Assembly (NCBI GenBank): GCA_015492435.1
Contig: WGFB01000014.1
Coordinates: 15,728 to 79,727, forward strand
Source of the DNA: Gammaproteobacteria bacterium
GTDB taxonomy: Bacteria; Pseudomonadota; Gammaproteobacteria; SZUA-140
Direction of reading: 5' to 3'
Length of the DNA stretch: 64,000 bases
In this document: positions 1,861 to 58,032 of the stretch, one piece after another
Layout: the number at the start of each line of letters is the position of its first letter
How positions within the stretch are numbered: the stretch's first letter is position 1
The notes under the pieces: model-generated
Seen by the model: the letters and a program-made list of their open reading frames with translations, nothing else
Told to the model about the DNA's origin: nothing
The model's database searches: none
Made by a program: the position numbers and the translations under genes

Positions 1861-1895
1861 TAACCCGCATTTCTCACCAATATGGCGGGCAATCA
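1861..1895. repeat. ~30-bp conserved hairpin motif, copy 1
   Basis: TAACCCGCATTTCTCACCAATATGGCGGGCAATC, immediately upstream of the sulfotransferase start. Confidence 0.5.
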
Positions 1896-10753: not shown

Positions 10754-10804
10754 GCATCCAGACTAATAGGGCTCAGCTTGTCCGATCCTGCCCTTAAAAA
10801 CAAG

Positions 10805-10963
10805 GGAAACTCTGATTAATTCTGGACCGGATGGATGGCGAGATGAAATGTTCCGGACCAAGGCGAAAAGCACAGGTAATAGCGCGCTATTGCCAAGATT
10901 TTCAACGCAGAGCCGGGACATTTCAGCCGCCAGACGCCGGTTTATGAATTGATCAGAGGTTCC
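10805..10963. mobile_element. 159-bp palindromic MITE (Correia-like), copy 1
   Basis: Terminal inverted repeats GGAA(A/C)CTCTGAT(T/C)AATTC ... GAATTGATCAGAGGTTCC. The internal arms and centre are near-identical to copies at 39421..39579 and 42132..42290. Confidence 0.75.
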
Positions 10964-11036
10964 CAAGCCATGATCAATTCAACCCGCGGGAAAGGCGGCA
11001 TTTTAGCGCGATTCCTTGCCGAATTCTAACCCGCCT

Positions 11037-11070
11037 TTCTCACCGGGATGGCGGGCTGACCTGAGCCTGC
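11037..11070. repeat. ~30-bp conserved hairpin motif AACCCGC(A/C)TTTCTCACC(R)GGATGGCGGG, copy 2
   Basis: Near-identical to 1861..1895 and 14364..14398. Stem CCCGCC/GGCGGG. Confidence 0.5.
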
Positions 11071-14363: not shown

Positions 14364-14398
14364 CAACCCGCATTTCTCACCAGGATGGCGGGATGACC
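14364..14398. repeat. ~30-bp conserved hairpin motif, copy 3
   Basis: AACCCGCATTTCTCACCAGGATGGCGGGATGACC, ~300 bp upstream of the bCerS candidate. Confidence 0.5.
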
Positions 14399-17709: not shown

Positions 17710-17773
17710 GTGATGTAATAATTATCCGGAATACCAAGTCCAAACAAGGTACAAGATGCAAAAGGCTGCTTCC

Positions 17774-17885
17774 CTTGTACCGTGTACCTTGTACCTTGTA
17801 CCTTGTAACTTGTAACTTGTACCTTGTAACTTGTACCTTGTACCTTGTAACTTGTAACTTGTACCTTGTACCTTGTACCTTGTAC
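17774..17885. repeat. Heptanucleotide tandem repeat (CTTGTAC/CTTGTAA)x16
   Basis: Directly visible: 16 contiguous 7-bp units with two alternating variants and one CGTGTAC variant. It lies between convergent gene ends. Confidence 0.95.
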
Positions 17886-17916
17886 CTTACTTAGATTGCG
17901 CCAGACTCAGCCCTGG

Positions 17917-38680: not shown

Positions 38681-39328
38681 TCAGCCTCCCGTTTCCTGGT
38701 TTGCAACGGCCTCTTCCAGCAGCCCGATGAGCTGCTTGACCTTTTCGTGTTTCATTTTCATCGACGCCTTGTTGACGATGAGGCGCGAACTGATTTCGGC
38801 AATCGTCTCCATGGGTACCAGGCCATTGGCCTTCAGCGTATTGCCCGTGTCCACCAGGTCCACGATGCCATCGGCGAGCCCCACCAGGGGGGCCAGTTCC
38901 ATGGAGCCATAGAGTTTGACGATCTCCACCTGAATGCCGCGCGCCGCGAAATAGCGCCGTGCGGTTTCCACATATTTTGTGGCAATGCGCAGGCGTGTGC
39001 CCTGGCCGGTCCACCCCTCCCGCCCGGCGGTCATCAGGCGGCAACGGGCAATCTTCAGATCCAAAGGCTCATAAAGGCCATTGCCACCGTATTCCATGAG
39101 CACGTCCTTTCCCGCCACGCCCAGGTCGGCAGCGCCATTCTCCACGAATGTTGGCACATCTGCCGCCCTGATGACAATCACATGAATGTCATCACGGCTG
39201 GTTTCGAAGATCAGCTTGCGGCTGGTAAAAGGATCATCCTTGAGGATGATGCCCGCATGCGCGAGCAATGGCAGGGTATCCTTGAGAATGCGTCCCTTGG
39301 AAAGGGCCACGGTGATTGGCATATTCAT
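38681..39328 (-). CDS. hisG: ATP phosphoribosyltransferase (short form, HisZ-dependent type)
   Basis: 215 aa. [11 protein letters not shown]...L...G...........R.L.......I.V...RA.DVPT.V..G.AD.G..G.D. The length indicates the HisG-short class. Confidence 0.85.
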
Positions 39329-39420
39329 TGTCGACCTGTTAGGTAATCAAAATACCGGCAACCCGCTTCCGCCGCCCGCCTCTCCCAAAAAGCTTGAGCA
39401 GGTTGGTCTTGAACGCTTTA

Positions 39421-39579
39421 GGAACCTCTGATCAATTCTGGACCGGATGGATGGCGAGATGAAATGTTCCGGATCAAGGCGAAAAGCGCAGGTAATAGCA
39501 CGCTATTGCCAAGCTTTTCAACGCAGAGCCGGGACATTTCAGCCGCCAGACGCCGGTTCATGAATTGATCAGAGGTTCC
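39421..39579. mobile_element. 159-bp palindromic MITE (Correia-like), copy 2
   Basis: Perfect TIRs GGAACCTCTGATCAATTC / GAATTGATCAGAGGTTCC. The interior is >90% identical to copy 1. Located in the hisG-murA intergenic region. Confidence 0.8.
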
Positions 39580-39627
39580 TTTATTATTAACCCGGCAACA
39601 ATAGCCGTCGCGCGCCGGTTCACCAAT

Positions 39628-40887
<1,260 letters not shown>

Positions 40888-41157
40888 TCAGGTGACGCGC
40901 AGATGGCGCGCCTGATCCCATTGCCGCGGGGTATAGGAGCGGATGGAAAGAGCATGAATTTCCGACTGCATGCGGTCTCCCAGCGTGGCATAGACCATGC
41001 GATGCTGTTCCAGCATGCTCTTGCCTTCGAAGGCGGCGGCAACGACCGAGGCCTCGAAATGGGTGCCATCGCCCGTGACGTTGACCTCACTGCCGGGAAT
41101 ACCCGTCTCTATCAAGCGTTTGATATCTTCACATTGCATTATCCGGATCGCCTCCAT
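40888..41157 (-). CDS. BolA/IbaG family protein
   Basis: ...DGTHFEASVVAAAFEGKSMLEQHRMVYATLGDRMQSEIHALSIRSYTPRQW is the BolA fold signature. The gene directly follows murA, as in the murA-ibaG arrangement. Start uncertain (internal Met). Confidence 0.7.
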   Translation of the reverse strand: MEAIRIMQCEDIKRLIETGIPGSEVNVTGDGTHFEASVVAAAFEGKSMLEQHRMVYATLGDRMQSEIHALSIRSYTPRQWDQARHLRVT

Positions 41158-41216
41158 GGAAGAAGCACTGGAATTATTGTAACCTGAATGTGCGGATTCA
41201 GGTGTAACAGAAACCT

Positions 41217-42053
41217 TCAAGCGCCCGTCTGCGAGGGCGCGATCTGCAGCCTGCGGTGACTGATGGAGGGAAATCCCCGCCGGATGCCGCGCAGGCGTTC
41301 AAGATCGATATCCGCCACCACCACCCCGGCGCCATTGGGCAGGCGTTCCAGCACCACCCCCCAGGGATCAACGATCATGCTGTCGCCAAATGTTTCCCGT
41401 CCATTGATGTGGTATCCCCCCTGCGCCGGCGCGATGACGTAACACAGATTCTCTATGGCGCGCACCCGCACCAGGGATTCCCAATGCGCCTTTCCCGTGT
41501 GAGCAGTGAAGGCGGAAGGCACCGCGAAGATCTCCGCGCCCTGATCCAGCATATAGCGGAAAAGCTCGGGAAAGCGCAAATCGTAGCAGACCGCCAGGCC
41601 TATCCTGCCAAAGGGCGTATCCGCCACCACCACCTCGTCACCAGGAAGAATGGTCAATGATTCGGTATAGCTCTCCATGCTGGCCTCGATATGCACGTCG
41701 AACAAATGCATTTTGTCATAGCGGGCCACGCGCGCTCCGCTTCCGTCATACAGCATGCACGCAGCATAGACCTTGCCGGGATCGTCCGTGCTCAGCGGGA
41801 CCGTGCCGCCAACAATCCAGACATCATGAAGGGCGGCCTGGCGGGAGATGAATTCCTGTATGGGACCCTCGCCGTCCTGCTCGCGGCATTTGACCTTGTC
41901 CTCTTCTTCCAGACCCATAATGGCGAAATTCTCCGGCAGAACCACCAGGTCCGCGCCGTGCTCGGCAGCCAGCCCGATAAGCCTTTCCGCCTCGATCAAA
42001 TTGGCGCTGATATTGGGACCCGAGGCCATCTGTACCGCAGCCACGCGACTCAT
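41217..42053 (-). CDS. Carbon-nitrogen hydrolase family protein (nitrilase/omega-amidase-like)
   Basis: 278 aa. Catalytic triad context LVVLPENF (E), YDKMHLFD (K), GLAVCYDLRFPE (C). Confidence 0.8.
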   Translation of the reverse strand: MSRVAAVQMASGPNISANLIEAERLIGLAAEHGADLVVLPENFAIMGLEEEDKVKCREQDGEGPIQEFISRQAALHDVWIVGGTVPLSTDDPGKVYAACMLYDGSGARVARYDKMHLFDVHIEASMESYTESLTILPGDEVVVADTPFGRIGLAVCYDLRFPELFRYMLDQGAEIFAVPSAFTAHTGKAHWESLVRVRAIENLCYVIAPAQGGYHINGRETFGDSMIVDPWGVVLERLPNGAGVVVADIDLERLRGIRRGFPSISHRRLQIAPSQTGA

Positions 42054-42131
42054 TGCATAACCCTCATATTGCTTGCCACCTGAAAAAAATCACAGGCCGT
42101 TGACCATAGCATATTCAGCGATTCAAATTAA

Positions 42132-42290
42132 GGAACCTCTGATCAATTCATGAACCGGCGTCTGGCGGATGAAATGTTCCGGATCAAGGTGAAAAGCGCA
42201 GGTAATAGCGCGCTATTGCCAAGCTTTTCAACGCAGAGCCGGAACATTTCATCTCGCCATCCATCCGGCCCAGAATTGATCAGAGGTTCC
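42132..42290. mobile_element. 159-bp palindromic MITE (Correia-like), copy 3, with arms exchanged relative to copies 1 and 2
   Basis: Same TIRs and same central 57 bp in the same orientation as copies 1 and 2, but the two internal arms are present as reverse complements in swapped positions. Confidence 0.8.
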
Positions 42291-42457
42291 TTGAGTGCTC
42301 CGCAGAACTCGCGAAATATCATGGAGAACAAATACATACGCCGAGGCCTTGCCACCGGGCGCCGCAAGGCGCGACGTATCCCCTGCGGCACCAGGGCGCC
42401 TGTCCTGTTTTTTCTTTCAGGCACAATCCGGCCTGGTTATTTCGATCAACGGGCCTT

Positions 42458-45400
42458 CTACTCCAAAGGCGTTACTTCCGGATCGTCCCAGGAACCCTTC
42501 ACGGAATACCTGACCCGCGTCGCCTTCTCGATCTCCGGCTTGAACAATTGCTCCGCCAGGAGAATCGCGGCTCCCACGCCCACCCCCCCCACTACCGCGC
42601 CGGCAACGGGCAGGCCGGAGGAAACCTCGGGCATCACTGTCACCACCTGATCATAGGTGCGCGCCATCAGATCGATTTTTCCCTCGACCTCCACCTTCGC
42701 GGCAGGCCCCTTGATTTTCAGGTCGCGGGTGGACGCAATACCCCGCGCAAAGTTGAAGTTGCCCTTGACGCTGTCGAAGGTGAATCCCTTGTCGAACAAG
42801 TCGCTGAAATCCAGGGACAAGCGTCTCGGCAGAGCGCGCAGGTTGACCAACCCGAAGATTCGTCCCGCGCCCGGCTCGATATCCACCAGGCGCCCGTCCT
42901 CGATAAGCAACGCCATGCTGCCCACGGCCTTGTCGCGGGAAAACGACATGGGCGACCCCCGCCAGCGCGCTGAAAAATGGATGCGCCCCTTCCCTTCCTC
43001 GATACTTTCCGCAAAGCCCAGCAGGCCCAGAGCCCGTCCGAGATCGCTGCTGTCGATGATGACATTGAAGTCCGACCAGGGATCCCCTTGCTCATTCAGC
43101 AGCCAATCGCCGGTGGCGGTGACGTTCATAGGGACTGACCGCAGACTGACCTTGTCAATATGCATTCCCCGCGGGCGGGGGCTGGTGCGCAGGGTCAGGG
43201 CGCCCAGGCGGGCATCATAGAGGGTAAACTCCTTGCTGTCGATGCGTATCGCGGGCATATCCCGGGGATCCATGTCGCCACTCCCGTCATCGCTGGATTC
43301 CCCGATATGTAAATAGTCGAGATTCATGACCAGCGCCCGGCCTTCCTTGCGGGGGTACTCGATATCGCCCTTCAACTCCTGGCTGACGGCGCTGATGTCC
43401 CAATATTCCGGGCGCCACAAAGCCCTTACCTCGGCATCGTGAAAGGCATGGCCGAATAATTCCACCTGCCCCACCGCCATGGCGACACTCCTTACCAGAG
43501 ACTGGCTGTTGTCTCTGGAATCAGCGGGAGCCTCTTCCTCCAGGTAGGGCATCCATTCACTGAAAGAGAAAAAAGGCGTGCTGCCCGACAGGCGCAATCC
43601 ATAATGATCGGGCAGGCGCGCCATATCGTCCCCGAACACAATCTCTCCCCGCTCAATGCTCATGGATTCGTCCACGTCGAGCACGCCATGCAATATATTT
43701 CCAAGACGGAAGGTCAGGGGAACATCCCGGGAGCGCGGCAGGGGTATATTGAGCTTCAGGTCGAGTGTGTCCGCGACTGGCTTGTTGAGGGGAAAGGGCA
43801 AATTGACGGCTAATCCCTTGAGGTCGGACTGAATCATCAGGCTGGCGTCGACGCGTCCCGATTCGTCCGCCGGCGGTATGGCGATGGATGCATTCCACAG
43901 GGCCTGCCCCTCCAGGTTGGAAAACAGCGGATCGGGCAGCAGTTCGGCGATTTTGGCGGCATCGGCGCTCCCCACCGAATAAAGATAGGTATGGGTCTGT
44001 CCCGCCTCCTGGACTGTCTGAATATTGATATCCGCGCGCATGCCCAGGACGGTGGCTTCGATATCATGGGCATACACGCCCTCATGGGTGAAGCGCAGCT
44101 CGCCCACGATATCCTCTACCGCCAGGCCATCCTCGTACAGATCGAGACGGTTGCCGTCAAGGTCGAGGCGGCCGTCAATCTCCGGCAAACTCGCGGGCGC
44201 CAGCCACTTATTGAGCTGCAGCTTCACGATGGCCGTTCCGGAGGCCGTTGCTTCTCCGAAATAAGGGCCAAACTTTTTCTCGAGCGGACTTTCCACAAGA
44301 TAACGCAATACATCAGAGGCAGGACCGGCCGCCTCTCCCCGCACCTGCAGGAAGGCGGGATCCGCGGCCAGGTCATCTATGACGATGCCGGCCTCGAGCA
44401 GCTTCGAAGACAGGCTTCCGCCACCCAGGATCGCGACATCCATGCGCTTGTTCCTGAACACCACCTCGGCGCCGACTTCCTCCAGGCGGGGCCAGCCCGG
44501 AGCATAATCGAGAATGCCGTCCTCCACGTTGAGCCGCACTTCGAACACACCTTCATCGTTCGTGAAGGGAAAGGCGCGCAGAGGCCCGTAGAACATCACC
44601 TCGCCATAGGGCACCCGGCCCGCGACCAGGGCGCGGTCAAGCCAAGCCACCAGACCGGGCTTCATGATGCCCGCGGGCAGATAGCCGGACGTCCTGCTGA
44701 TATCCGGCACCTCCAGGCTGGCCAGCAAATCCACCCATGGGGACCGGGCCGGATCCTCGGGCCATTCGACGACGGCCGAGGCACGCAGCAACAGGTCTTC
44801 GTTCAAGATGCGCAGGTCCCGGGCCCTTATCTTCCACGCCTGTCCGCGCTTCAACCAGGTAACGCTGCCATCGATATGTTCGATGAGCAGAGGCAAGCGC
44901 AACACATCCTTGTAGGCCACGCGCGTGGCAGTGGAGCTGAGCTGCAGCATGCCCGATTGTTCATTGGCGGTAAAGCTCCCCGAAATACCATGGATGCGGG
45001 GCATGTTCCCTCCGGCGTGAAACCCCATGTCTCTCATGGAACCGGTGATCTCAAAACGGCCGCCCACGACACGCCCGGCAAGCTGATACAGGTGCCCGGA
45101 AGGCCGCAACTTCCCAAGCGCCTCCGATACCGCATCGGGCACGGCATCCAGGAAAGCAGCCAGATCCACCACGTCCCGGATATCCATATAGGACAGACGC
45201 GCCGCGGCCAGCAGAGGCGCTCCCTCGTCAGTGGAAACGGAAAGCTGCAAGTCCGACAGTGGCCACCGACGCCCTGCCCGCTCTACCATGAAATTCCGCA
45301 GGGCCAGCCCCCATCCCCGGCGCTGGCGCTGCCAGAGAAAGTCGCCACTGGCGCGGTCCAGCGCAAAGCGCGGCGATCCTGCCCCGGTCCTGGCCAGCAT

Positions 45401-46246
45401 CAGGTCGTCGACTCTTGCCCGCCCGGCGATGGAACGCAGCTCGCCACGCCTCCAGCTTGCCCAGAGTTTCGCCGAGGCCACGCCACGCTCGGAACGCAGG
45501 CCTGCCTGGAACAGGCCCTCAGGCAACTGATCCAGGCGTATTTCCTCCACTTCCACATAGACTTCACCCTGCCAGTTATCCGACCCCAGAACATTTCCCC
45601 GGAAATCCGCCGCAAACCAGACGCGCTGATTCTCGAATTCCGGCAGCAGCGCCGCACCGTCCAGTTGGTGGCGGCGGCCGTCATTGCGCAGCTCGATGTT
45701 GAGTTCGTGAATGTGATAAGTGGCGCCACCCTTCATCCGGTCCTGCCACCTGATCTGATTGGCCGAGATTGCGATCCGGTCCCGGCTCAACAGCCACGCC
45801 GCGAACAACCGCCCCCCCCTTCCCGAATCCGCCTGTCCGGCCGGGCCAAACCCCTCTATGGAGATCCTGCCCTGCTCGTCGCGCATGATGGACAACCCGA
45901 TGCCATCGAGAGTCACACTGTCGATCTGCAGGGATCCGGTCAACAGGGACTTGAGGGCATCGATACCCACGACGATGCTGTTGAGCACAAGCAGGGGCGC
46001 GCCGCTTTCCTTGTCGAGCAGCATCAAGCCCACCAGGCGGATGCGGGGACCCATGCCATGCCACTCGGCCACGATGGCGGTCACATCCAGAGGCTGGTCC
46101 AGTTGCTCGGAGAAATAGGTGATAAGTTCCTCGCGGTATTCGTTCAGAAACGGCAGCGAAAAGCGGGCAAGGGATATGGCAATGGCCAAAAGGATGGTCA
46201 GCGTGGCAATCGACAACCAGAGCCTGTAGCCAATTTTGCGTATCAT
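42458..46246 (-). CDS. yhdP: YhdP/AsmA-like family protein (large inner-membrane-anchored periplasmic protein implicated in phospholipid transport)
   Basis: 1262 aa (E. coli YhdP is ~1266 aa). N-terminal TM anchor, then a long predicted beta-rich periplasmic body and a C-terminal DUF3971-like region. Confidence 0.65.
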   Translation of the reverse strand: MIRKIGYRLWLSIATLTILLAIAISLARFSLPFLNEYREELITYFSEQLDQPLDVTAIVAEWHGMGPRIRLVGLMLLDKESGAPLLVLNSIVVGIDALKSLLTGSLQIDSVTLDGIGLSIMRDEQGRISIEGFGPAGQADSGRGGRLFAAWLLSRDRIAISANQIRWQDRMKGGATYHIHELNIELRNDGRRHQLDGAALLPEFENQRVWFAADFRGNVLGSDNWQGEVYVEVEEIRLDQLPEGLFQAGLRSERGVASAKLWASWRRGELRSIAGRARVDDLMLARTGAGSPRFALDRASGDFLWQRQRRGWGLALRNFMVERAGRRWPLSDLQLSVSTDEGAPLLAAARLSYMDIRDVVDLAAFLDAVPDAVSEALGKLRPSGHLYQLAGRVVGGRFEITGSMRDMGFHAGGNMPRIHGISGSFTANEQSGMLQLSSTATRVAYKDVLRLPLLIEHIDGSVTWLKRGQAWKIRARDLRILNEDLLLRASAVVEWPEDPARSPWVDLLASLEVPDISRTSGYLPAGIMKPGLVAWLDRALVAGRVPYGEVMFYGPLRAFPFTNDEGVFEVRLNVEDGILDYAPGWPRLEEVGAEVVFRNKRMDVAILGGGSLSSKLLEAGIVIDDLAADPAFLQVRGEAAGPASDVLRYLVESPLEKKFGPYFGEATASGTAIVKLQLNKWLAPASLPEIDGRLDLDGNRLDLYEDGLAVEDIVGELRFTHEGVYAHDIEATVLGMRADINIQTVQEAGQTHTYLYSVGSADAAKIAELLPDPLFSNLEGQALWNASIAIPPADESGRVDASLMIQSDLKGLAVNLPFPLNKPVADTLDLKLNIPLPRSRDVPLTFRLGNILHGVLDVDESMSIERGEIVFGDDMARLPDHYGLRLSGSTPFFSFSEWMPYLEEEAPADSRDNSQSLVRSVAMAVGQVELFGHAFHDAEVRALWRPEYWDISAVSQELKGDIEYPRKEGRALVMNLDYLHIGESSDDGSGDMDPRDMPAIRIDSKEFTLYDARLGALTLRTSPRPRGMHIDKVSLRSVPMNVTATGDWLLNEQGDPWSDFNVIIDSSDLGRALGLLGFAESIEEGKGRIHFSARWRGSPMSFSRDKAVGSMALLIEDGRLVDIEPGAGRIFGLVNLRALPRRLSLDFSDLFDKGFTFDSVKGNFNFARGIASTRDLKIKGPAAKVEVEGKIDLMARTYDQVVTVMPEVSSGLPVAGAVVGGVGVGAAILLAEQLFKPEIEKATRVRYSVKGSWDDPEVTPLE

Positions 46247-57972: not shown

Positions 57973-58032
57973 CCTCGCTTGTTTAGATAGAAGATCAACG
58001 GTTAACCCGTATTTCCCGCCAGCATGGCGGGG

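What the first reader, a model, noticed from the sequence alone, without database searches (positions are those of the whole stretch)
42132..42290. MITE copy 3 has its two internal arms swapped while the centre keeps orientation: evidence for recombination or inversion within the element family
In copies 1 and 2 the order is TIR, arm A (TGGACCGGATGGATGGCGAGATGAAATGTTCCGGA), centre, arm B (GGGACATTTCAGCCGCCAGACGCCGGTTCATG), TIR. In copy 3 the A position holds revcomp(B) and the B position holds revcomp(A), yet the 57-bp centre is in the same orientation.

The centre is bounded by a 12-bp inverted repeat (GAAATGTTCCGG … CCGG(G/A)ACATTTC). The pattern is what inversion of the centre between these inner IRs would produce, after whole-element insertion in the opposite direction. 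The alternative is arm exchange by recombination between copies, analogous to alpha/beta end combinations of Neisseria Correia elements.

This points to an active or recently active DNA rearrangement mechanism, possibly an invertase acting on the inner IRs.
Basis: seen in the sequence. Interest (0 to 1): 0.7.

Follow-up and report, generated by a model that had tools for sequence, protein, structure and literature searches.

The report
One MITE copy with flipped core
One copy of a small hairpin-shaped mobile DNA repeat has its 56-bp middle flipped relative to its ends; this is a real but one-off replication or recombination accident between short internal inverted repeats, not a working DNA switch.

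Summary
Copy 3 (42132-42290) has the outer arms of copies 1 and 2 in reverse orientation, while its 56-bp centre is in the same orientation. So the centre is inverted between the inner repeats GAAATGTTCCGG/CCGGRACATTTC.

The repeat is a 159-bp MITE of IS5 type: an 18-bp terminal inverted repeat (TIR), a 4-bp YTAR target-site duplication (TSD), and the same TIR on a 1169-bp IS5-family element. It is widespread in uncultured marine Gammaproteobacteria.

Every other classifiable copy in the sequences retrieved has the canonical arrangement: 67 close copies and about 45 diverged ones. Copy 3 is the only inverted copy.

The inversion is identical in five independent assemblies. The insertion is absent from a strain that is 93-95% identical.

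Of copy 3's three rare substitutions, two are exactly the two mismatches of the inner repeat, both changed on the B side to complement the A side. Replacing positions 53-123 with the reverse complement of positions 38-108 turns a consensus ancestor into copy 3 exactly.

This is the footprint of a replication template switch (loop inversion plus compensatory changes). A conservative invertase would not leave it. No recombinase domain, no promoter-like site in either MITE locus scanned and no second orientation were found.

Verdict: a real feature with an ordinary mechanism; low to moderate interest.

The parts
42132..42290 (-). MITE copy 3 (159 bp). Its arms are in canonical A-to-B order on the minus strand, and its centre is inverted relative to them.
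   Evidence: The locus is identical in five other assemblies. The site is empty in the related strain L123.
42128..42131 (.). Left target-site duplication of copy 3 (TTAA).
   Evidence: The empty site in L123 reads AAATTA|AGCGCC. Close copies have a 4-bp YTAR duplication.
42291..42294 (.). Right target-site duplication of copy 3 (TTGA, one mismatch to TTAA).
42132..42149 (+). Terminal inverted repeat GGAACCTCTGATCAATTC at the B-arm end of copy 3.
   Evidence: The same TIR lies on the IS5-family element L063:6629-7797.
42150..42167 (-). Outer part of arm B, read here as its reverse complement (ATGAACCGGCGTCTGGCG).
42168..42182 (.). Inner inverted repeat on the B side (GATGAAATGTTCCGG). Bases 42169 and 42178 are the two changes that make it the perfect complement of the A-side repeat.
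   Evidence: canonical positions 113 G>A (seen in 1 of 37 copies) and 122 G>T (0 of 37)..
42183..42238 (+). The 56-bp centre, in the same orientation as in copies 1 and 2 and so inverted relative to copy 3's own arms. It has a private C>T at 42190.
   Evidence: 54/56 identical to c2 on the plus strand.
42239..42253 (.). Inner inverted repeat on the A side (CCGGAACATTTCATC), unchanged from the family consensus.
42254..42272 (-). Outer part of arm A, read here as its reverse complement.
42273..42290 (-). Terminal inverted repeat at the A-arm end of copy 3.
39421..39579 (+). MITE copy 2, canonical arrangement. Its TSD is TTTA at 39417-39420 and 39580-39583. It lies between hisG and murA.
   Evidence: It folds as one long hairpin: DNA minimum free energy -52.9 kcal/mol, z-score -11.5.
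10805..10963 (+). MITE copy 1, canonical arrangement. Its TSD is CAAG at 10801-10804 and 10964-10967.

Best explanation
The repeat is a 159-bp non-autonomous transposable element (MITE) of the IS5 family that folds into one long imperfect hairpin.

Copy 3 is a recent insertion. A single mutational event flipped its 56-bp centre between the 12-15-bp inner inverted repeats.

The most likely event is an inter-strand template switch during DNA replication:
1. The nascent strand copied the A-side inner repeat.
2. It then paired with the complementary repeat on the other strand.
3. It copied the centre and the A-side repeat backwards.
4. It returned to the original template.

This inverts the centre and also rewrites the B-side repeat as the exact complement of the A-side repeat.

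Shown: the inversion; its uniqueness in the sequences retrieved; the two co-converted bases; and that one reverse-complement copy reproduces copy 3 exactly.

Inferred: that replication template switching, rather than recombination, did it, and whether it happened before or after insertion at this site.
For: Family identity:
- 44 close full-length copies have 4-bp, mostly YTAR, target duplications.
- The orthologous site in L123 (93-95% identical) is empty.
- The same TIR bounds a 1169-bp element with a TTAA duplication and a DDE_Tnp_1 + DUF772 transposase.

Hairpin:
- The DNA fold has a z-score of -10 to -11.5.
- 35 of 62 pairs show compensatory changes across 28 diverged members.

Uniqueness: 65 metagenome copies plus c1 and c2 are canonical. 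All diverged members are canonical. An HMM-based reclassification gives 46 + 84 canonical centre hits and only c3 inverted.

Footprint:
- With its centre re-inverted, c3 differs from c2 at 5 sites.
- Its three rare changes include positions 113 (seen in 1 of 37 copies) and 122 (0 of 37).
- These are exactly the two mismatches of the inner repeat, and both changed on the B side.
- My rough estimate of this happening by chance is about 1e-4.
- Replacing positions 53-123 with the reverse complement of positions 38-108 of a consensus-type ancestor yields c3 exactly.

Same process elsewhere in the family:
- In L153:2054 the B-side inner 21 nt have been converted to the perfect complement of the A side without an inversion.
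- L129, L135 and L105 gained an A that extends the TIR.

Literature: template switching producing compensatory changes together with loop inversion is described in PMC8794818. Quasi-palindrome template-switch mutations in E. coli are described in PMC7202029 and PMC6357072.
Against: - The ancestor of c3 may already have had a perfect inner repeat. L153 shows that such copies exist, and it shares the rare AAGGTG variant. In that case any repeat-mediated mechanism fits and the footprint does not discriminate.
- Homologous recombination followed by mismatch repair of heteroduplex could also homogenise the repeats.
- Documented template-switch loop inversions are mostly 4-8 nt (PMC8794818). This event involves 71 nt.
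- The rest of the source genome could not be surveyed. The close copies come from two metagenomes holding related populations, so other inverted copies in this genome cannot be excluded.
Confidence: 0.6

Rival explanations
1. Intramolecular homologous (RecA-type) recombination between the inner inverted repeats flipped the centre. The repeats were either already perfect or were homogenised by mismatch repair of the heteroduplex.
For: - The geometry is identical to that of an inversion between inverted repeats.
- A canonical copy with a perfected 21-nt inner repeat exists (L153), so a perfect-repeat ancestor is plausible.
- c3 and L153 share the rare AAGGTG variant.
Against: - From general knowledge, not tested here: 12-15 bp with two mismatches is far below the length normally needed for efficient RecA-dependent exchange.
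- A simple reciprocal crossover from a c2-type ancestor would leave hybrid repeats, not two A-type repeats.
- L153's conversion tract differs from c3's (it has an extra T and a longer tract), so it is not the direct ancestor.
Confidence: 0.2
2. Ectopic exchange between two copies: gene conversion or a double crossover, with a second copy aligned antiparallel through the inner repeats, replaced the centre. This corresponds to the reader's 'arm exchange' analogy with Correia alpha/beta ends.
For: - The genome carries many near-identical copies: 3 in 64 kb, and 70 metagenome stretches carrying the A-arm motif.
- A conversion tract covering the centre plus the donor's A-side repeat would also make the B-side repeat A-like.
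Against: - It needs two exchange points within very short homologies.
- The tract would have to end within 4 nt of the centre on the A side yet extend at least 14 nt on the B side.
- A single crossover would give A/A or B/B chimeras. None was seen in the roughly 67 close copies.
- No mosaic arm combinations were found in the family.
Confidence: 0.12
3. The inner repeats are sites for a serine or tyrosine invertase and the centre is a programmed invertible switch.
For: Inverted repeats flank the segment that is flipped. That is the only supporting fact.
Against: - 1 inverted copy against more than 100 canonical ones, across deep divergence.
- A single orientation of c3 in five assemblies.
- No Resolvase, Phage_integrase or transposase domain in 50 predicted proteins of the window.
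- No promoter-like site in either MITE locus scanned (c3; c2).
- The repeat co-conversion footprint is not what a conservative exchange gives.
Confidence: 0.03
4. Assembly or consensus artefact: repeat collapse produced a chimeric copy.
For: Copies of this MITE often break contigs. L191 and L194 start inside the element, L188 has an N gap over it, and many copies lie at contig ends.
Against: Five independently assembled contigs from different samples carry exactly the same sequence as the window across the whole element and its flanks.
Confidence: 0.01

Closest known systems
Template-switch mutations in hairpins and quasi-palindromes (Loytynoja & Goldman 2017, PMC5453318; Monttinen & Loytynoja 2022, PMC8794818; E. 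coli quasi-palindrome mutagenesis, PMC7202029 and PMC6357072)
   Same: - One event makes a reverse-complement copy of adjacent sequence.
- The loop is inverted in place.
- Mismatches in the stem are corrected at the same time, and length is preserved.
- c3 fits the published category 'compensatory mutation + loop inversion'.
   Different: - The inverted 'loop' here is 56 nt (71 nt copied), and it is itself a structured quasi-palindrome. Most published loop inversions are 4-8 nt.
- The substrate is a mobile element, not an RNA gene.
IS5-family-derived bacterial MITEs (for example BrickBuilt and MITEPgRS of Porphyromonas, ATR of Neisseria; PMC4596501)
   Same: - Short and non-coding.
- TIRs shared with full-length IS5-family elements.
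- Multi-copy and mostly intergenic.
   Different: - A different TIR sequence (GGAACCTCTGATCAATTC).
- Clean 4-bp YTAR duplications.
- The whole 159 bp is a single long hairpin with a strongly conserved asymmetric arrangement.
- The hosts are uncultured marine and sediment Gammaproteobacteria.
Correia repeat-enclosed elements (CREE/NEMIS) of Neisseria
   Same: - A hairpin-forming MITE of roughly 100-160 bp.
- Subtypes are defined by end and core combinations.
- In-situ inversion of the element has been reported (Elbeyioglu et al. 2017, as cited in PMC10969869).
   Different: - From my own knowledge, Correia inversion is between the terminal repeats and swaps the alpha/beta ends. Here the ends stay and the core flips between internal repeats.
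- From my own knowledge, Correia makes a TA duplication. Here the duplication is 4-bp YTAR.
- There is no sequence relationship.
- Here the inversion is a single case, not a recurrent polymorphism.
Small hairpin-associated inversions in chloroplast non-coding DNA (my own knowledge: Kelchner & Wendel 1996)
   Same: A loop or spacer between short inverted repeats flips, while the stem stays.
   Different: In plastids these inversions are recurrent and homoplasious. Here the canonical orientation is conserved in every other copy examined.
Programmed invertible DNA switches (Hin/Gin, fim; 'invertons')
   Same: An inverted-repeat-bounded segment is found in the opposite orientation.
   Different: No recombinase domain in the window, no promoter-like site, no second orientation at the locus, and only one inverted copy among more than 100.

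Membership tests
IS5-family-derived MITE | Short, non-coding, multi-copy element with terminal inverted repeats | tested here: met
   - 159 bp with an 18-bp TIR.
- 3 copies in the window.
IS5-family-derived MITE | TIRs shared with a full-length IS encoding an IS5-type DDE transposase | tested here: met
   - L063:6629-7797 is 1169 bp, with TIRs matching 15/18 and 18/18.
- Its 318-aa ORF hits DDE_Tnp_1 (1e-30) and DUF772.
- A partial homologue lies next to the TIR in L073.
- Caveat: no such IS was found in the window or in the close-relative loci.
IS5-family-derived MITE | Target-site duplication typical of the IS5 group (4 bp, YTAR) | tested here: met
   - 44 close copies have mostly CTAG, TTAA, CTAA or TTAG on both sides.
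- c1 has CAAG, c2 TTTA and c3 TTAA/TTGA.
- That YTAR is the IS5 target is from my own knowledge (ISfinder).
IS5-family-derived MITE | Presence/absence polymorphism with an intact empty site | tested here: met
   L123 lacks c3 and reads AAATTA|AGCGCC at the site. The hisG-murA spacer of L123 has a copy at a different site and in the opposite orientation.
IS5-family-derived MITE | Mobilisation by the cognate transposase | not testable with these tools
   Needs a transposition assay.
Template-switch mutation with loop inversion | All clustered differences from the ancestor are explained by one reverse-complement copy of nearby sequence, with length preserved | tested here: met
   Replacing positions 49-53 through 122-123 with the reverse complement of positions 38-39 through 108-112 gives c3 exactly (10 equivalent solutions).
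Template-switch mutation with loop inversion | Ancestral state established from relatives | tested here: met
   - The consensus of 37 close 159-bp copies has G at position 113 in 36 of 37 and G at position 122 in 37 of 37.
- The canonical arrangement holds in all diverged members.
Template-switch mutation with loop inversion | Dependence on replication rather than on recombination | not testable with these tools
   Needs genetics (recA, exonuclease and replication mutants) with a reporter carrying this element.
Programmed invertible switch (invertase-driven) | Both orientations present at the locus or among copies | tested here: not met
   - Five assemblies show one orientation.
- None of more than 100 other copies is inverted.
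- Minor read-level variants could not be examined.
Programmed invertible switch (invertase-driven) | Serine or tyrosine recombinase encoded nearby | tested here: not met
   No such Pfam domain at E<=1e-5 in 50 of the 54 predicted proteins of the 64-kb window. The other four are hisD, hisG, murA and the AsmA/YhdP-like protein. The rest of the genome was not available.
Programmed invertible switch (invertase-driven) | Functional cargo (promoter or coding end) in the invertible segment | tested here: not met
   No sigma-70-like site in either MITE locus scanned, c3 or c2. This is a consensus scan only.
Correia element (CREE/NEMIS) | Correia-type TIR with alpha/beta variants and a TA duplication | tested here: not met
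   The TIR sequence is unrelated and the duplication is 4 bp. The Correia features themselves are from my own knowledge and PMC10969869.

The most novel reading that the evidence does not exclude
The element family is under strand-specific structural constraint: it functions as an RNA or a single-stranded DNA hairpin of one defined strand. The evidence is that the canonical strand folds about 21 kcal/mol better than its complement in 27 of 28 diverged and 44 of 44 close copies, and that G.T pairs outnumber A.C pairs 181 to 28 in the stems.

On this reading the fixed arm-to-centre orientation is functionally required. Copy 3 would then be a natural 'core-flip' mutant, and template switching would be the process that both maintains the hairpin and occasionally generates new MITE subtypes.

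A still more novel reading is that the inner repeats are recombinase sites making a MITE-borne switch. This is not formally excluded but is very unlikely.
Probability: 0.2. Interest if true: 0.5.

Novelty: new member of a known kind. Interest (0 to 1): 0.28.

Why it matters
As a DNA switch this would have mattered, but the evidence is against that.

What remains is a clean natural example of a large (71-nt) templated inversion in a bacterial repeat. The ancestral state is well defined by more than 100 relatives, and a two-base footprint discriminates between mechanisms. It shows how quasi-palindromic MITEs can generate 'mosaic' subtypes without any dedicated enzyme, and how template switching may keep their hairpins intact.

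In practical terms:
- Mosaic MITE copies should not be read as evidence for invertases.
- This MITE family breaks metagenome assemblies.
- It also seeds spurious ORF calls.

Tried and rejected
- **Rfam.** Nothing reached gathering score in the window. A permissive scan of c2 gave only chance-level hits, to a plant miRNA hairpin model and a leader.
- **Protein-database survey for other inverted copies.** I used the peptide translated through c3. It gave only 3 hits, all canonical, so its power is low.
- **Viral-contig scans.** Junction motifs specific to the inverted and to the canonical arrangement found no copies at all.
- **First orientation classifier.** Arm scores against c2 mis-called five diverged elements. 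They were corrected by end motifs, by the alignment and by an HMM-based classifier. One HMM 'inverted' call (L128) was a truncated canonical copy.
- **Orientation of copies relative to co-directional flanking genes.** This was a test for an RNA-level function. Close copies gave 15 same to 5 opposite and diverged copies gave 5 to 7, which is inconclusive. It also rests on a crude GC3-based gene caller.
- **Promoter and terminator scans of both MITE loci.** Nothing was found inside the elements.
- **Pfam scan for an invertase in the window.** None found.
- **The complete source genome.** It could not be retrieved.
- **Elbeyioglu et al. 2017 (Correia inversion).** The paper is not in the library and is cited only through PMC10969869.

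Full report
**1. The observation**

The window holds three 159-bp copies of one repeat: c1 10805-10963 (+), c2 39421-39579 (+) and c3 42132-42290. Neither arm sequence occurs in 100 shuffles of the window.

I split each copy at the inner repeats GAAATGTTCCGG / CCGGRACATTTC and compared the segments:
- c3 on the minus strand matches c2 at 40/41 and 39/40 in the outer arms, but only 38/58 in the centre.
- c3 on the plus strand matches 54/56 in the centre, but only 35/42 and 33/42 in the arms.

The multiple alignment shows the same thing.

**2. What the repeat is**

With the element defined as GGAACC...GGTTCC, each copy is flanked by a 4-bp direct repeat: CAAG for c1, TTTA for c2 and TTAA/TTGA for c3.

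Most come from uncultured marine or sediment Gammaproteobacteria, including Sedimenticolaceae, Candidatus Thiodiazotropha, Chromatiales, Woeseiaceae and Thiotrichales.

A metagenome scan with the A-arm 28-mer returned 70 stretches from two JGI metagenomes.

Forty-four close full-length copies have 4-bp duplications, mostly CTAG, TTAA, CTAA or TTAG. From my own knowledge this is the YTAR target of the IS5 group.

The same terminal repeat bounds a 1169-bp element in L063. That element has a TTAA duplication and a 318-aa transposase hitting DDE_Tnp_1 (1e-30) and DUF772. A partial homologue sits next to the repeat in an Ectothiorhodospiraceae MAG.

The element is therefore an IS5-family-derived MITE. 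IS5-related MITEs are known elsewhere (PMC4596501).

The whole element folds as one long hairpin: DNA minimum free energy -52.9 kcal/mol, z-score -11.5 for c2, and -53.9 kcal/mol, z-score -10.1 for c3. Across 28 diverged members, 35 of 62 predicted pairs show compensatory changes.

**3. Is c3 real, and how old is it?**

The nitrilase-like protein next to c3 is encoded on nine other public contigs. In five independent assemblies the whole c3 locus is base-identical to the window, inverted centre included. Two further contigs start inside the element, one has an N gap over it, and one (L193) ends 53 bp upstream of the gene, short of the element.

L123 is a metagenome contig 93-95% identical to window 38913-45620. 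Its c3 site is empty (AAATTA|AGCGCC), so c3 is a comparatively recent insertion. In the same contig the hisG-murA spacer carries a copy at a different site and in the opposite orientation to c2.

**4. How common is the inverted arrangement?**

Using outer-arm against centre orientation, 65 metagenome copies plus c1 and c2 are canonical and c3 is the only inverted copy. Nineteen fragments or insertion-bearing variants could not be classified by score, but by eye they read as canonical or too truncated to tell.

In all diverged members (67-94% identity to c2, from many different MAGs) the arrangement is the same. The end GAT(T/C)AATTCTGG is linked to the TCAAGGCG side of the centre, and the end CATGAATTGATC is linked to the AACGCAGAG side.

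An independent classification used profile HMMs of arm A, centre and arm B. It gave 46 canonical centre hits in the genome loci and 84 in the metagenome loci, with c3 as the only true inverted case. The one other flag was a truncated canonical copy.

The upper 95% bound on the frequency of the inverted form among the other close copies is about 4% (0 of 67).

The canonical arrangement is thus stable across deep divergence.

**5. The footprint of the event**

With its centre re-inverted, c3 differs from c2 at five sites. Two are common polymorphisms. Three are rare:
- position 60, C>T;
- position 113, G>A (seen in 1 of 37 close copies);
- position 122, G>T (seen in 0 of 37).

Positions 113 and 122 are precisely the two mismatches between the A-side inner repeat (GATGAAATGTTCCGG) and the B-side repeat (reverse complement GCTGAAATGTCCCGG). 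Both changed on the B side to complement the A side.

With roughly 477 possible single substitutions in the element, my rough estimate is that two of three rare changes landing on those two mismatches has a probability of about 1e-4.

I took a consensus-type ancestor and replaced canonical positions 53-123 with the reverse complement of positions 38-108. This reproduces c3 exactly, and ten equivalent choices of switch points exist.

This is the pattern expected from an inter-strand replication template switch: X-IR-centre-IR'-Y becomes X-IR-rc(centre)-rc(IR)-Y. [quoted passage not shown] Template-switch mutagenesis at quasi-palindromes is well established in E. coli (PMC7202029, PMC6357072).

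A conservative reciprocal exchange by an invertase, or a simple crossover, starting from a c2-type ancestor would give either unchanged or hybrid repeats. It would not give two A-type repeats.

**6. The same process elsewhere in the family**

L153:2054 is a canonical copy whose B-side inner 21 nt have become the perfect complement of the A side (G>A, G>T and +T) without an inversion.

L129, L135 and the Sedimenticolaceae copy L105:6357 each gained an A that extends the terminal repeat.

These are templated, multi-base corrections of a quasi-palindrome. L153 also shows that a perfect-repeat ancestor of c3 is possible. That is why recombination between pre-perfected repeats stays as a rival.

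**7. Tests of the invertase idea**

- None of 50 predicted proteins of the window has a resolvase, integrase or transposase domain. The window is ordinary chromosome: lipopolysaccharide/glycosyltransferase genes, trpE, an ACIII-like oxidoreductase cluster, tatABC, the his operon, murA, rng, leuS, lnt and amtB.
- There is no promoter-like site in either MITE locus scanned.
- Only one orientation of c3 is seen.
- No other copy is flipped.

I put this reading at about 3%.

**8. Comparison with known systems**

In mechanism, c3 resembles the published template-switch loop inversions and the hairpin-loop flips of plastid spacers, but with a much larger 'loop'.

In kind, the element is an IS5-family MITE. 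It is not a Correia element. According to PMC10969869, in-situ inversion has been reported for Correia elements. The geometry there, between the terminal repeats rather than internal ones, is from my own knowledge. The primary paper is not in the library.

**9. Verdict**

The best explanation is a single template-switch inversion in one recently inserted MITE copy (confidence about 0.6). The main rival is repeat-mediated recombination.

This is a new member of known kinds, both of MITE and of mutation, and interest is low to moderate.

The most interesting loose end is a family-level property, not the inversion. The canonical strand folds about 21 kcal/mol better than its complement in 27 of 28 diverged and 44 of 44 close copies, and G.T pairs outnumber A.C pairs 181 to 28. 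This suggests that one specific strand is the constrained molecule. The orientation of copies relative to neighbouring genes did not settle this.

Noticed in passing
window 10805-10963 and 39421-39579; alignment A4 (28 family members); 44 close copies in L116-L185: Strong strand asymmetry of the hairpin. With RNA parameters the canonical strand folds about 21 kcal/mol better than its complement in 27 of 28 diverged and 44 of 44 close copies. G.T pairs outnumber A.C pairs 181 to 28 in the stems (85 to 27 without the five majority-wobble columns). This suggests constraint on one specific single strand, RNA or ssDNA.
   Followed up: partly
L153:2054-2213: A canonical copy whose B-side inner 21 nt are the perfect complement of the A side (G>A, G>T, +T). 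This is a quasi-palindrome correction without an inversion. It shares the rare AAGGTG centre variant with c3.
   Followed up: partly
L124:8957-9152, L137:6448-6648, L157:11194-11385, L160:11635-11826, L119, L121, L127, L159; also L045:6675-6873: A subfamily carries an insertion of about 43 bp (CCCCAGGGCACCCTCTCTCGCGCCAGCGCGATTCACCTTGTAG) at the apex of the centre loop. It is always in the canonical arrangement, and it occurs in both close and distant hosts.
   Followed up: no
window 39587-39603; L133:9773-10048, L134:4328-4485, L143:2645-2895, L123:6097-6111: A second MITE-like repeat family has inverted ends AACCCGGCA(A/G)CAATA lying 158-276 bp apart. A solo end lies right next to c2. In L134 one copy splits a copy of the first family.
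   Followed up: partly
L006, L024, L047, L106 (Binatia OZ241979); L018, L027, L065; L029, L059, L076 (Pseudohongiella): The same 18-bp terminal repeat bounds unrelated interiors of 109-110 bp, 149-151 bp and about 262 bp, in several phyla. One transposase type apparently mobilises several MITE families.
   Followed up: no
window 17773-17888: A tandem array of a 7-bp unit (CCTTGTA, 16.6 copies, 92% matches) lies in the spacer upstream of trpE.
   Followed up: no
window 1862-1889, 11028-11055, 14365-14392, 58004-58031: Four copies of a 28-nt REP-like palindromic repeat (AACCCGCATTTCTCACC..ATGGCGGG). One lies 65 bp downstream of c1.
   Followed up: no
window 42150-42650 (+) and 42143-42424 (-); P0001-P0003; L187:2404-2904: The element is open in one frame on each strand, so gene callers extend or start spurious ORFs in it. 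Examples are a 166-aa 'protein' beginning MNRRLADEMFR, and database proteins made largely of translated MITE.
   Followed up: yes
L116-L194 contig ends (e.g. L191, L194, L164-L170): Many contigs begin or end inside a copy, and one scaffold has an N gap over c3. The family fragments short-read assemblies of these organisms.
   Followed up: no
L129:7401-7560, L135:20-179, L105:6357-6516: Independent gains of one A after the left terminal repeat (TTC-TGG becomes TTCATGG) extend the perfect terminal inverted repeat. This again looks like a templated correction.
   Followed up: no
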